This document shows positions 56,538-63,989 of a stretch of DNA of 64,000 nt, piece after piece. The DNA lies in the NCBI GenBank assembly GCA_012295275.1, contig CM022679.1:22816001-22880000 (forward strand). The letters run 5' to 3'. Every line of letters starts with the position of its first letter. Within the stretch, counting starts at the first letter, position 1. The position numbers and the translations under genes were made by a program. The notes beneath the pieces were generated by a model. It did no database searches. It was not told the DNA's origin and saw only the letters and a list, made by a program, of their open reading frames with translations. Origin of the DNA: Chrysomallon squamiferum (taxonomy: Eukaryota; Animalia; Mollusca).

Positions 56538-57347
56538 GGTACTGTCAACAGTGTCTGGTGAAGAAACTAATAGAAATAGTTTTCCAAATTAATGCAGGTT
56601 AGTATTATAATTAAAGAGTAGTGTGAAATACAGTTACAAATTGATGTATATTATAATTACAAATTGTGTGTATTACAAATTATAGGTTAGTGAGTATTAT
56701 AATTAAAGGCTGGTGTGTAATATAATTACAGATTGATGTGAATTATAATTATAGGTTACTGTCAACAGTGTGTGATGATGAAAATCCTTGAAATAGTTTA
56801 CCAAATTAATACAGGTTAGTATTGTAATTAAAGAGTAGTGTGTATTATAATTAAAGATTCATGTTTATTATAATTATAGGTTAGTGTGTATTATAATTAA
56901 TGGTTAGTCTATATTATAAATACAAATAAGTGTGTATTATATTTAAATGTTGATATGTATTATAGCTACAAATTAGTGTGTATTATAGCTAATGTAATTA
57001 AAGAGTAGTGTGTATTATAATTAAAGATTCATGTTTATTATAATTATAGGTTAGTGTGTATTATAATTAAAGATTCATATTTATTAATTACAGGTTAGTC
57101 TATATTATAAATACAAATAAGTGTGTATTATATTTAAATGTTAATGTGTATTATAGCTAGAGGTTGATGTGTATTATAATTAAAGGTTAGTTTATATTGT
57201 AATTAAAGTTTAGTATATATTTCAATCTAAAGTTAGTATTATAATTAAAGATCAGTGTATGTTATATTACAGGTGGTTGTCAAGACTGCCATATGAAGGA
57301 AACATCAAACGTTTCTAATCAAGCGACTGGTGTAGATAATGAAAATG
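56538..57347 (+). CDS. Putative symmetric (phase 1-1) CxxC micro-exons, copy A
   Basis: AG..GT-bounded open segments 56538-56597 (GYCQQCLVKKLIEIVFQINA), 56755-56814 (GYCQQCVMMKILEIVYQINT) and 57273-57347 (GGCQDCHMKETSNVSNQATGVDNEN). All are phase-compatible with the exon at 58167. No start exon was identified for this copy. Confidence 0.5.
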
Positions 57348-58166
57348 GTACATATACAAATATATTCAAATTTTAATTGTCATGTGTTAAGATATTTGAA
57401 TCAGCCAATTATTTTATCAAGTCAGTGACAGGATAACAACAAGAACAATTGCAGTAATGCTAACTCTTATAATGATTACAATAAATAATAGTAACAATAT
57501 TAATAATACTACTACTACTACTACTACTACTACTACTAATAATAATAATAATAATAGTAATCAAATTCGAACAAAAGTATTAAGTAAATAAATAAATAAA
57601 TAAATATTAGAGAAAATGTTTATCATATCTTTATTAAAAAAAACATGTTTTTTTCTTAAGTTGAAGATGTTGATGCAAAGAAACTGTTTACTGGGGCTTC
57701 TGCAGGATCTCATTCTTTTATCTTTTTACACTCAAAACAAAACTCAGCCCACATCAGAAAGTAAACACTTATTATAATTCAAACAATCTACTTTATTTAT
57801 TATTTTATCTCTATTTTTTTTCCAAACTGTATTTAACATTACAAAATTGAAAGAAACTGTTTAAAGAATTCTAAACAAATAAAATTATTTAATTATTGTT
57901 TATTTATTTATTTATTTATTTATTTGTTTGTTTGTTTCATTAGACCAGTAGAATGCCTAAGTCCTGTTACAGCAATAACTGAATTATAAACAGTTTGGAA
58001 AACTGGACATCGTCCACGTTTTCCCTGTAATAATGATAATGATGATAAATGATGATGATGATGACAATAATAATAATAAATAAATAAATAAATAAATAAA
58101 TAGTTTTTAAATTTTAATTAATAAATTCAAAAAAGGCACTGTTAATTAAACATTGTTTACTCGTAG

Positions 58167-59167
58167 GAGATGATAAAGAAGATGGAGAGACGTCAGAAAT
58201 AAGAACAGTTGACAGTCAGCCATCATGGTGTATGTGTAGCCATTGCCGCGGGATGCCTACAGATGAAGAACAATTTTGTTGTGGACGAAAACCTGCAGAG
58301 TGCAGGTCCACCCAGGTAAAACTATTTGTATGTGAAATGATCTATAAAAGAATCACATGTGTATCATTCCAGGTTTTCATTGGCCCATTTGTTGGTAATA
58401 TCCCCAAATGAGCAACACCGAGGTTAATTATTAACAAAACAAAACACTGGTCTGAGACATGTTGGGTTCCATTGTTGATAATTTTTGCTTACTGAGCTAT
58501 TTATCATTCTAGCCTATCTTCAGTGTCTAGTTTACATTTTCCACTCTGTGAGAAAGTGCATGTGAATAGTATTGTTGTTAAGCAAACATCAAACAGTACC
58601 TTAATGACCAAGTTTTTAATATGTTACATGAAACTAAAAAACTACATAACAAGTTTAGTTATATTCCTGACTGCTGTCAATTCTAAAATTAAAAATATTC
58701 CTCATTAACTGTGCTTATTAATAATATTATTTTGTTTCACTTGCAAATCTAGTTTGTTTTATTCCTGTTATATAAAATATTTTATTTGAGAAATATATTG
58801 GTGTTAAATCCACATTGGTGGCTAGTTGTTTGAACATTTAAGTCTAAAATGTACACTAATTGTTTTGCTATGATTGAATTCTGTCCATGTTAATACATTC
58901 ATCTGTTTTTGATTTCAGAAGGATTTGAATGATATTATCACTGATGTCCTGACTAATTGGAAATGCCCTCCAGCAGACACCAACAAGGGAGAACATTTTA
59001 TAAACGACAGAAAGAGGAGGGAATGCTACAGACAACTGGCTGAGAAAATTCATGGAAAGCTTGGTCCTAAAACACGAAAGCCTCTTCCAGCATGCTGCGT
59101 TTGGAGAGTCAGAGTTCAATTTCCTGATCCCAAAGGAAAATACATGGGTTTCAGAAAAGCAAATTAA
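58167..59167 (+). CDS. P2X7 cytoplasmic-ballast-like Zn-binding Cys domain (P2RX7-like / nanor / Kolobok accessory-type), last two exons
   Basis: Exons 58167-58315 (phase 1 start, phase 0 end) and 58919-59167. ...SWCMCSHCRGMPTDEEQFCCGRKPAECRSTQ|KDLNDIITDVL...RRECYRQLAEKIHGKLGPKTRKPLPACCVWRVRVQFPDPKGKYMGFRKAN*. Matches the WCxCxxC..CC..C and LPxCCxWxxRxxFP..GxYxGF signature of the P2X7 C-terminus. No channel or TM exons seen. Confidence 0.88.
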
Positions 59168-60880: not shown

Positions 60881-61177
60881 TTAGTGTGTGCAACGTTTGC
60901 CTTTTCCCTGGTTTCTATTACAAACCACTTTATACCATGATAAAGACAGCTTAGGCTTTACTGTAATAAAAATAAAGTAAAAATCACAACCAAAGTAAGA
61001 TAGCTTAAACATGATTCATGAGTTTAACAACAACAACAACAATAACAACGTGTTGTGCATGTCGGAGTCAGATATACGCCATTTTGCCTGTGAGTTTATT
61101 TTTAGAAAATGTTTTTTCCAGGTTTCAGTTTTAATTTCCTGATAATAATCCATTAGAATTCTGCGGTAGAAAATAAC

Positions 61178-63989
61178 ATGATTATTCATAAAGCAGGTAT
61201 GACTTATTGACTATTTTACAAATATTAATATATGAAATTTAAACTGATGACTGAAATTATGTAGATAAAGCAAACAAAAAAAACAACAACAAAAAAACAA
61301 GCAATGAAACCAGTGTAATTCATATGAATAAAACTTTGTGATAAAGATCAAAGGTTATCGCATTTTTTTCCTTTGTTTTTTCTTTCTGAACACTTTTCTA
61401 TGACAATTTTGCATCAAATTAACAAGAAACAGATTGATTAGATTAATTTTAGTCCAAAGAGATTAACGGAAGTGATTCTAACCCAGTAATGAATTTAAAT
61501 CGATCACTTTAAAGCTGATCAATATGTTAGTATGATAGTCACTGTTATGGCTAGGTTTAAAGAGATATCACAAAATAAAATGAAATAACTTGTATAGGAG
61601 GGAATGTCAAAAGATTATTCAGAAATCTCTTTTCTGTTCATGATAATTATAATAAATAAATAAAACAAATAACAAGAATAATAAGAGATAATGCATGAAA
61701 TATAATGGGACATATATTGAGGGAATAACACATTTTGAGAAAGAAAGAGAGAATCACAAATTGTCGACAGTGTCTGGTGAAGAAACAGAGAGAGAGAGAG
61801 AGAGAGAGAGAGAGAGAGAGAGAGAGAGAGAGAGAGAGAGAGAGAGAGAGAGAGAGAGAGAGAGAGAGAGAGAGAGAGAGAGAGAGTAGTACAAATTCAA
61901 GGTATTGTATATTGTAATTACAGGCTACTGTCAAAGGTGTCTGGTGAAGAAACTCCTAGAAATAGTTTACCTAATTAATACAGGTTAGTATTATAATTAA
62001 AGAGCAAATTGGTGTATAATTATAATTACAAATTGGTATATATTATAATTATACGTTAGTAAGTTCTATAATTACAGGGTGTACATTATAATTAAATGTA
62101 ATATAAATACAGATTGATGTGAATTATAATTATAGGTTACTGAAAACAGTGTGTGATGATGAAAATCATTGAAATAGTTTACCAAATTAATACAGGTTAG
62201 TATTGTAATTGTAGAGTAGTGTGTATTTTAATTAAAGGTTGGCGTTGTATTATAATTATTCATTTGTGAGTTTTATAATTACAGGCTGGTATATATTATA
62301 ATTACAGGCTGGTTTGTATTATAATTGCAGACTGATGTGAAATTATAATTACAGGTTACTGTCAACAGTGTCTGGTGAACAAACTCCTAGAAATAGTTTA
62401 CCAAATTAATACAGGTTAGTATTGTAATTAAAGAGTAGTGTGTATTGTAATTAAAGGTTCATGAGTATTATAATTACAGGTTGGAGTTTATAATTAAAAG
62501 TTAAATGTGTATCATAATTAAATGTTAGTGGTATTATAACTACAAATCAGTGTGTGTTATAATTAAATGTTAGTGGTATTATAACTACAAATCAGTGTGT
62601 ATTATAGCTAGAGGTTGATATGTATTATAATTAAAGGTTAGTGCCTATTGTAACTAAAGGTTAGTATATATTTCAATGTAAGGTTAGTGCCTATTGTAAC
62701 TAAAGGTTAGTATATATTTCAATGTAAGGTTAGTGCCTATTGTAACTAAAGGTTGGTATATATTTCAATGTAAGGTTAGTGCCTATTGTAACTAAAGGTT
62801 GGTATATATTTCAATGTAAGGTTAGTGCCTATTGTAACTAAAGGTTGGTATATATTTCAATGTAAAGTTAGTGCCTATTGTAACTAAAGGTTAGTATATA
62901 TTTCAATGTAAGGTTAGTGTCTATTGTATCTAAAGGTTAGTATATATTTCAATGTAAGGTTAGTGCCTATTGTAACTAAAGGTTAGTATATATTTCAATG
63001 TAAAGTTAGTGTCTATTGTATCTAAAAGTTAGTATATATTTCAATGTAAGGTTAGTGCCTATTGTAACTAAAGGTTAGTATATATTTCAATGTAAGGTTA
63101 GTGCCTATTGTAACTAAAGGTTAGTATATATTTCAATGTAAAGTTAGTGTCTATTGTATCTAAAGGTTAGTATATATTTCAATGTAAAGTTAGTGCCTAT
63201 TGTAACTAAAGGTTGGTATATATTTCAATGTAAGGTTAGTGCCTATTGTAACCTAAAGGTTGGTATATATTTCAATGTAAGGTTAGTGCCTATTGTATCT
63301 AAAAGTTAGTATATATTTCAATGTAAGGTTAGCGTGTATTATAATTAAAGATCAGTTAAGAATATGTTATAATTATAGGTGGTCGGCCAGACTGCGATGT
63401 GGAGGAAATGTCAGACAACGTTCACCCAGCAGCTGGTAGAGAAAATGAAAATGGTACACACTACCAAATGTTTTAATTGTCATTTGTTAAGATATTTGAA
63501 TCAGCTACTTATTTTAGGAAGTCAGTGACAGGAGAACAACAAGAACTACTGCAGTAATGCCAACACTGATACTTATTACAATAAATAATAACAACAGTAA
63601 TAACTATAATAATAATAATAATAATAATAATAATAATAATAATAATAATAATAATAATATTATTATTATTATTATTATTATTATTATTATTATTATTATT
63701 ATTAAAAATTCTCAAAAAGTAACAAATAAATAAATAGATAAATAAATAAATAAATAAATAAATATTATGAGAAAATATTATTTCCTGTAACTATTTAAAT
63801 CACATTTTTGAAAGTTTAGTATGTTTATCATAGTTTAGTATGTGTATAAATATTTTTCTTAAGTTGAAGATGTTGATGCAGGAGGACAAGATGCTGCTGC
63901 TGCAGATACTGGGGCTTCTGCAGGATCTCAATCTTTTATCTTTTTACACTCAAAAAATATCTCTGTGGTGACGCAAACCACATCAGAAG
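61178..63989 (+). CDS. Putative 5' part of the duplicated CxxC micro-exon / ballast-domain gene, copy B (continues beyond window)
   Basis: Candidate start exon ATG 61178-61196 (MIIHKA, G|GTATGA, phase 1). Phase 1-1 exons 61924-61983 (GYCQRCLVKKLLEIVYLINT), 62355-62414 (GYCQQCLVNKLLEIVYQINT), 63379-63453 (GGRPDCDVEEMSDNVHPAAGRENEN) and 63864-63989 (VEDVDAGGQDAAAADTGASAGSQSFIFLHSKNISVVTQTTSE). The unit at 62136-62195 carries a TGA. Confidence 0.5.
62634..63331. repeat. 46-bp minisatellite, about 15 copies (dimer of two related 23-mers)
   Basis: Unit AAGGTTAGTGCCTATTGTAACTA+AAGGTTAGTATATATTTCAATGT. Starts at 62634 and 62680, with the final partial unit at 63325. Confidence 0.95.

What the first reader, a model, noticed from the sequence alone, without database searches (positions are those of the whole stretch)
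56538..63989. Stand-alone P2X7-ballast-like gene fused to an expandable array of CxxC micro-exons, present in tandem copies
Seen: five 60-nt segments (56538, 56755, 61924, 62136, 62355) and two related 75-nt segments (57273, 63379), each bounded by AG and GT, all phase 1-1, reading GYCQQCL/VxKKLxEIVYQINT. The first Gly varies only at the wobble base (GGG/GGT/GGC) and other changes are mostly conservative (L/V/I/M, F/Y). They splice in phase onto the exon at 58167 encoding a Cys-rich domain. Known: this domain matches the P2X7 cytoplasmic ballast, which holds a dinuclear Zn centre and a guanine nucleotide, and related stand-alone domains occur in invertebrates and as Kolobok transposon accessory proteins. 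Inference: a lineage-specific metal-binding protein family whose number of CxxC modules can vary by exon duplication and skipping. I know of no described protein with this architecture.
Basis: partly seen in the sequence, partly recalled or inferred. Interest (0 to 1): 0.8.

Follow-up and report, generated by a model that had tools for sequence, protein, structure and literature searches.

The report
Snail gene from transposon helper protein
A snail carries tandem, partly damaged copies of a small gene likely derived from the zinc-binding helper protein of Kolobok jumping genes (kin of the P2X7 receptor tail); one family member is spliced in RNA, but the short cysteine repeats in front of it are only predicted exons and look loosely conserved.

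Summary
The segments lie where stated and have AG..GT ends, but the CxxC array is weaker than claimed. One of five 60-nt copies has a stop in place of the first Cys, one of two 75-nt copies lacks that Cys, the copies show no synonymous excess (omega 0.87), and AG|GT recurs throughout the surrounding 23-bp minisatellite. The ballast domain is real (PF20478; all cysteine clusters kept). In 14 of 28 metagenome loci its relatives face a Kolobok transposase, and five loci share its intron, so the gene likely descends from KolX. No transposase or TIR pair was found in the window. No RNA piece lay on the 60- or 75-nt segments. Copy 1 has that exon frameshifted and has lost a first-exon donor; copy 2 has the stop-bearing micro-exon, and its ballast exons would lie beyond the window. 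Verdict: a small, fast-changing, KolX-derived snail gene family, a variant of the known nanor-type stand-alone ballast proteins. The tunable metal-binding array is unproven.

The parts
55478..55547 (+). Copy 1: candidate first coding exon (inferred). Homologous to 61059-61089, but that donor is lost; a new ATG and a later phase-1 GT exist
56538..56597 (+). Copy 1: 60-nt predicted micro-exon A, CxxC intact
56602..57270 (+). 23-bp minisatellite carrying AG|GTTAGT, around micro-exon B
56755..56814 (+). Copy 1: 60-nt predicted micro-exon B, CxxC intact
57273..57347 (+). Copy 1: 75-nt predicted exon (CQDC, then polar linker); 11 of its first 20 nt match the 60-nt unit
57661..57760 (+). Copy 1: damaged paralogue of the 126-nt Ser/Thr-rich exon, 26 nt shorter; frameshifts the ballast if included
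58167..58315 (+). Ballast exon 1 (WCxCxxC..CC..C); acceptors at 58167 and 58170 are in the same frame
58919..59167 (+). Ballast exon 2 to stop (RxxxY, LPxCC, R, FP, YxGF); acceptors at 58919 and 58922 are in the same frame
60500..60900 (.). CpG-rich stretch upstream of copy 2, possible promoter (inferred); holds a 56-bp motif (60623-60678) repeated elsewhere in the genome; no counterpart found before copy 1
61059..61089 (+). Copy 2: candidate first coding exon, ATG to a phase-1 GTGAGT donor (inferred)
61762..61786 (+). 25-nt remnant of a sixth 60-nt unit beside a GA microsatellite
61924..61983 (+). Copy 2: 60-nt predicted micro-exon C, CxxC intact
62136..62195 (+). Copy 2: 60-nt unit D with an in-frame TGA replacing the first Cys
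62355..62414 (+). Copy 2: 60-nt predicted micro-exon E, CxxC intact
62634..63350 (+). 46-bp (2 x 23) minisatellite array, 15.6 copies, in the intron before the 75-nt exon
63379..63453 (+). Copy 2: 75-nt predicted exon, first Cys lost
63864..63989 (+). Copy 2: intact 126-nt phase 1-1 Ser/Thr/acidic exon; a homologue is spliced to ballast exon 1 in RNA

Best explanation
These are two tandem copies of a small snail gene family likely derived from the KolX helper gene of a Kolobok transposon: one family member is spliced in RNA, the protein would be a soluble zinc-binding ballast domain with a variable N-terminal tail, and the 60-nt segments are likely loosely constrained exons of that tail. The gene has likely been parted from its transposase and multiplies by unequal crossing-over, at the level of the whole unit (about 6 kb) and of a roughly 215-bp exon-plus-intron unit embedded in a splice-site-bearing minisatellite (inferred). 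Every upstream exon is phase 1-1, so any can be gained, skipped or lost without breaking the ballast frame; this would let damaged units such as D and 57661-57760 persist. The protein most likely works as nanor-type ballast proteins are thought to: a Cys-liganded two-zinc fold acting as a binding module, possibly for a guanine nucleotide (inferred, untested), with the tail as a fast-changing appendage rather than a counted set of metal sites. Both copies in the window carry lesions and may be decaying members.
For: Shown: PF20478 hits on both exons and P2X7 structures as best PDB matches. Cys at domain positions 20, 22, 25, 36, 37, 44 and 106 match columns 95-100% conserved in 73 relatives. 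14 of 28 metagenome loci with relatives carry a convergent gene downstream, whose sequence matches the Kolobok_1_PiPr_1p transposase row in Kojima and Bao's supplement. The phase-0 intron 4-5 codons after the first Cys cluster is shared with L001, L006, L007, L008 and L009, while 4 other loci with that cluster read through. No transposase match in the window. RNA run X1 holds a 606-nt contig of a paralogue (16 differences in 149 nt) whose flanks are the start of ballast exon 2 and the end of a homologue of the 126-nt exon (19 of 30 letters in register, P about 6e-5). Run X3 holds the same variants with intron-like flanks, so the X1 form is spliced. Run X2 shows up to four further contig variants of ballast exon 1. 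For the micro-exons: the predicted frame is the only stop-free one of six in the majority sequence, missense changes are conservative (P=0.024), and the interior is not derived from the minisatellite (P 0.39-0.79). Omega 0.87, one nonsense change and one lost Cys point to weak constraint.
Against: No RNA piece lay on any 60- or 75-nt segment at 80% likeness, so their exon status is inferred. The spliced contig is from a paralogue, not from either copy in the window. The spliced evidence is one contig from one study. Copy 2's ballast exons are off the window and no genome was available, so the size and layout of the family are unknown. A right-hand transposon end beyond 64000 cannot be excluded. 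Only 2 of the 5 rat GDP-contact residues are kept (R546 and R578 equivalents; one search read with PMC7016195).
Confidence: 0.58

Rival explanations
1. One reading: a functional family whose number of metal-binding CxxC modules is tuned by exon duplication and skipping.
For: 5 of 7 units keep CxxC; all are phase 1-1; missense changes are conservative; the 75-nt unit of copy 1 keeps C-Q-x-C with a synonymous Cys codon; X2 holds an intact 60-nt type at depth 90, like the intact 126-nt exon (103) and a ballast variant (90) (depth is not copy number).
Against: Omega 0.87; Cys1 lost twice, once by a stop; no RNA support; a single CxxC per unit gives only half a four-ligand site (own knowledge); no Pfam or PDB match for the peptide; no similar peptide among the 222 fetched proteins or 28 loci.
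Confidence: 0.15
2. The 60- and 75-nt segments are not used as exons: they are intronic repeats or dead exons amplified with the minisatellite, and the true 5' exons are others.
For: AG|GT is built into the 23-bp repeat; neutral synonymous ratio; no RNA piece on them although short pieces of 35 nt were laid elsewhere; silent pseudo-donors in a minisatellite are known from human F7 intron 7 (PMC1557585, abstract).
Against: Interior unrelated to the minisatellite; lengths are multiples of three and in the phase that the ballast needs; only open frame of six. The 126-nt exon homologue in the same contig also failed to lay, so failure to lay does not show absence; about 234 nt of the contig's 5' part remain unidentified.
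Confidence: 0.15
3. The units are non-autonomous Kolobok elements that still carry KolX and are moved by a transposase elsewhere in the genome.
For: KolX ancestry; several paralogues; the 56-bp motif at 60623-60678 follows a TTAA at 17 nt in contigs from other places (loose ends).
Against: No convincing TTAA-flanked inverted repeat pair in 49-64 kb (best 13 of 16, AT-rich, with imperfect TTAA); in the window the motif is not 17 nt from a TTAA; the copies are tandem, with seven or more predicted exons; the helix-Pro-helix motif seen upstream of the ballast in 28 of 56 relatives is absent. The same TIR scan also found no pair in 13 loci, most of them transposase-bearing, so its power is low.
Confidence: 0.12

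Closest known systems
KolX, accessory protein of Kol0-lineage Kolobok DNA transposons (Kojima and Bao 2022, PMC9587614: Background section, passages, supplement searches)
   Same: Ballast fold with the conserved cysteines; same intron position and phase as in five related loci, two of which (L006, L009) have the convergent transposase
   Different: No transposase and no TIR pair found in the window; lacks the N-terminal helix-Pro-helix motif of many relatives; has several extra phase 1-1 upstream exons; tandem copies
nanor / nanor-like stand-alone ZCD proteins, PANTHER PTHR36981 (Rump et al. 2020, PMC7016195: parts 2 and 3 of 6 and passages)
   Same: Short protein, no membrane domain, ZCD at the C terminus, variable N terminus without homologues, often duplicated, only R546 and R578 equivalents kept; already reported in Lottia and oyster
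   Different: N terminus predicted to be built from repeated 60-nt micro-exons inside a minisatellite; no such layout in the parts of that paper that I read
P2X7 cytoplasmic ballast (Pfam PF20478; PDB 9e3q, 8tr5, 6u9v)
   Same: Sequence match over both exons
   Different: No P2X channel part; H547, R574 and K583 equivalents are not kept

Membership tests
ZCD / P2RX7_C domain family | Pfam PF20478 above the curated cut-off | tested here: met
   26.1 and 37.2 bits against 23.5
ZCD / P2RX7_C domain family | Three Cys clusters: PxWCxCxxC, CC..C, (L/I/V)PxC(C/S)xxx(I/V)RxxFP | tested here: met
   All present; motifs as given in PMC7016195
ZCD / P2RX7_C domain family | Binds two zinc ions and a guanine nucleotide | not testable with these tools
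   Needs biochemistry; only R546 and R578 equivalents kept
nanor-like stand-alone ZCD proteins | ZCD at the C terminus of a short protein without a P2X or transmembrane part | tested here: met
   Stop at 59165-59167; upstream RNA exon is a polar linker; only one ballast pair and no P2X match among the frames scanned
Kolobok (Kol0) transposon | DDD/E transposase gene beside KolX | tested here: not met
   Ten transposase frames from related loci give no tblastn hit in the window at E 0.05; DNA beyond 64000 not seen
Kolobok (Kol0) transposon | TTAA target-site duplication with 5'-RR..YY-3' inverted termini | tested here: inconclusive
   No convincing pair in 49-64 kb; the scan also failed on transposase-bearing loci, and a right end may lie off the window
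Kolobok (Kol0) transposon | KolX-type ballast gene | tested here: met
   Relatives face a Kolobok transposase in 14 of 28 loci; shared intron
P2X7 receptor | P2X channel domain N-terminal to the ballast | tested here: not met
   The exon spliced upstream is the short Ser/Thr-rich exon; no long coding frame between 49.1 kb and the ballast
   No RNA piece on the units; low-depth contigs only
   Omega 0.87; Cys1 lost in 2 of 7 units, once by a stop; small sample

The most novel reading that the evidence does not exclude
A snail lineage has domesticated KolX into a rapidly diversifying multigene family whose expressed members carry a variable, alternatively spliced number of CxxC micro-exons generated by a splice-site-bearing minisatellite, with surface residues of the ballast under diversifying selection (13 missense to 2 synonymous changes in the expressed paralogue, sparing every Cys), as expected of a protein that counters Kolobok elements or another fast-changing partner.
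Probability: 0.13. Interest if true: 0.55.

Novelty: new variant of a known kind. Interest (0 to 1): 0.26.

Why it matters
The ballast domain has no known function, and KolX has already been proposed as the source of both P2X7's tail and nanor (PMC9587614). This locus likely adds one more, recent, independent escape of KolX from its transposon, caught while gaining and losing upstream exons. It is also a neat small case of exon duplication inside a minisatellite that carries splice sites. It does not by itself open the question of what the ballast does, and the feature that made the finding striking, a selected array of metal-binding modules, did not hold up.

Tried and rejected
No genome was held, so the genome-wide search and the view right of 64000 were not possible. 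Word-based homologue searches with each ballast exon among longer proteins found nothing (weak evidence). ESM Atlas gave no usable hit. An exact 25-nt micro-exon pattern had 0 matches in metagenome contigs; viral contigs held no relative among 20 pattern matches. The idea that the 20-residue repeat echoes the helix-Pro-helix motif upstream of the ballast in relatives was tested and rejected (shuffle P 0.08-0.56). The idea that the 60-nt interior is degenerate minisatellite was rejected. Faster-than-intron change of the 75-nt and first exons is only marginal after correcting for base composition (P 0.025 and 0.049, five tests, gapped intron alignments; A/C equal to introns, B/D and the 126/100 pair slower), so diversifying selection is not claimed; for the expressed paralogue omega is about 1.5, not significant. 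A single-sequence fold of relative P0006 was useless (pLDDT 40). At 88% likeness the first read laying showed no splice joints. Run X4 gave only short repeat pieces. X1 also has contigs on 59903-60418 and on intron 58719-58894, so these libraries hold unspliced or DNA-derived sequence. The original cryo-EM paper was not held; residue numbers come from PMC7016195. Figure S6 of PMC9587614 (KolX alignment) is a picture and could not be read; it may bear on which N termini KolX proteins have. Paper searches found no description of this gene or layout. Look-ups of earlier findings by place and sequence found nothing on it.
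Full report
Setting. The window is AT-rich animal DNA (GC 22-37%) with a CISD2-like gene and an ETNPPL-like gene upstream. The last ETNPPL exon is closest to Gigantopelta aegis (73%), so the organism is probably a related snail. No whole genome was held.

Observation. All seven short segments lie at the stated places with AG before and GT after, and their open frame is phase 1-1. 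They belong to a tandem duplication: copy 2 (from about 60930 to beyond the window's end) matches copy 1 (about 53040-57770), with introns about 14-16% diverged. Copy 1 has two 60-nt units; copy 2 has three and a 25-nt remnant at 61762-61786. Three things were missed. Unit D (62136) has TGA in place of the first Cys. The second 75-nt unit has no CxxC. A further phase 1-1 exon of 126 nt (63864-63989) follows the 75-nt unit; its copy-1 paralogue (57661-57760) is 26 nt shorter and would shift the frame and stop the protein before the ballast. The units sit in a 23-bp minisatellite whose unit carries AG|GTTAGT (47 AGGT in the two blocks), so the AG..GT ends alone say little.

Are the 60-nt units coding? 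Across the five, 4 of 17 derived states are synonymous, 12 missense and 1 nonsense: omega 0.87, no departure from neutrality (P=0.50; pairwise pN/pS 0.78). In favour of coding: the predicted frame is the only one of six without a stop in the majority sequence, 8 of 12 missense changes are conservative (35% expected, P=0.024), the interior is not degenerate minisatellite, and the phase fits a candidate first exon (61059-61089, GTGAGT donor) and the ballast. I read this as real but weakly constrained exons. The peptide matches nothing in Pfam, the PDB, the fetched proteins or the loci.

The ballast. Both exons pass the PF20478 cut-off and match P2X7 structures. The cysteines of all three clusters are kept. 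Of the five rat GDP contacts listed in PMC7016195 (parts 2 and 3 of 6 read) only the R546 and R578 equivalents are kept, the pattern that paper reports for invertebrate stand-alone domains, which it already found in Lottia and oyster. The best of 458 hits in the representative library are only 46-52% identical; 8 of the 10 looked up carry a named animal source (echinoderm, fish, bivalve, amphioxus), several as 'P2X purinoceptor 7-like'.

Origin. Kojima and Bao (PMC9587614; Background, passages and supplement searches) show that KolX of Kol0 Kolobok elements is a ballast domain and propose it as the source of P2X7's tail and of nanor. A metagenome scan gave 28 loci. In 14 of 28 a conserved gene faces the ballast from the other strand (I dropped L014 and L017, whose hits fall on the ballast itself; L002, L003 and L005 are near-copies of one element). 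Of the other 14, 11 end within 900 nt of the match and L028 is a 16-residue match in a PQQ-domain gene. Pfam did not name the partner, but its sequence follows the Kolobok_1_PiPr_1p transposase row almost motif for motif. Of 9 loci where the first Cys cluster was found, 5 have a phase-0 donor five codons after it, against four codons in the window; the other 4 read through. The window holds no transposase match and no convincing TTAA-flanked inverted pair, and the gene lacks the helix-Pro-helix motif found upstream of the ballast in 28 of 56 relatives. So: KolX ancestry is well supported, membership of a transposon is not.

RNA. Four runs were offered, all as contigs. At 88% likeness no splice joint appeared. 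At 80%, run X1 gave a 606-nt contig, depth 11.5, laid on 58168-58316 with 16 differences. The letters behind it are the start of ballast exon 2 (equivalent to the acceptor at 58922). The 30 letters before it match the end of the 126-nt exon at 19 of 30 places in register, compared by eye with 63958-63987 (P about 6e-5), in the same frame. Run X3 holds the same variants with intron-like letters on both sides. So a paralogue is transcribed and spliced as 126-nt exon, ballast 1, ballast 2. About 234 further letters at its 5' end were not shown and did not lay on the 60- or 75-nt units; since the 126-nt homologue did not lay either, this is not absence. Of the 15 listed exon differences, read by hand from the table, 13 are missense and 2 synonymous, both in Cys codons (omega about 1.5, not significant; sparing of Cys P 0.15 over the exon, 0.04 over the variable part). 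Run X2, of unrecorded kind and laying like DNA, shows up to four other contig variants of ballast exon 1, an intact 126-nt exon and an intact 60-nt type: a small multi-copy family.

How it most likely works. Shown: domain identity, tandem duplication, lesions, splicing of one paralogue. Inferred: a KolX gene lost its transposase, gained short phase 1-1 exons, and now expands and decays by unequal crossing-over, helped by the minisatellite. Symmetric phases let any upstream unit be skipped: copy 1 stays open for 218 codons if the 100-nt exon is skipped, and copy 2 stays open to the window's end if D is skipped. Repeated donors in a minisatellite beside a true exon have a precedent in human F7 intron 7 (PMC1557585, abstract). 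The product would be a soluble two-zinc binding module with a changeable tail. Copy 1 has also lost the first-exon donor and has no match to the CpG-rich stretch that precedes copy 2, so it may be a pseudogene.

Verdict. A new variant of a known kind (nanor-type, KolX-derived stand-alone ballast gene). My searches found no paper on this layout. The expandable metal-binding array is possible but not supported by selection or by RNA. Interest 0.26.

Noticed in passing
window 60623-60678: A 56-bp motif shared with many contigs of runs X1-X3; in some of them it starts 17 nt after a TTAA, like the subterminal part of a Kolobok-type non-autonomous element.
   Followed up: partly
window 15521-19225: Long frames on the + strand: a 359-codon frame, a 604-codon Thr/Ser-rich repetitive frame and a weak PAN domain (just under cut-off); looks like a mucin-like secreted protein gene.
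   Followed up: no
window 22789-23109: Exon of a CISD2/mitoNEET-type gene.
   Followed up: no
window 36707-49112: ETNPPL-like aminotransferase gene; last exon 73% identical to the Gigantopelta aegis protein.
   Followed up: partly
window 54534-54721: A short repeat element, with an inverted copy at 1372-1530, inside a 2.2-kb stretch that copy 1 has and copy 2 lacks just before the first exon.
   Followed up: no
proteins P0004-P0148: 28 of 56 ballast relatives with enough upstream sequence share an unnamed helix-Pro-helix motif before the ballast, often after an RG-rich stretch; possibly a conserved second domain of this KolX subfamily.
   Followed up: partly
protein P0003: An Amphiura filiformis model fuses a protein kinase domain to a ballast domain; real fusion or annotation join not checked.
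   Followed up: no
L024:629-1804: A reverse transcriptase frame lies just upstream of the KolX-like gene in a Kolobok-bearing locus.
   Followed up: no
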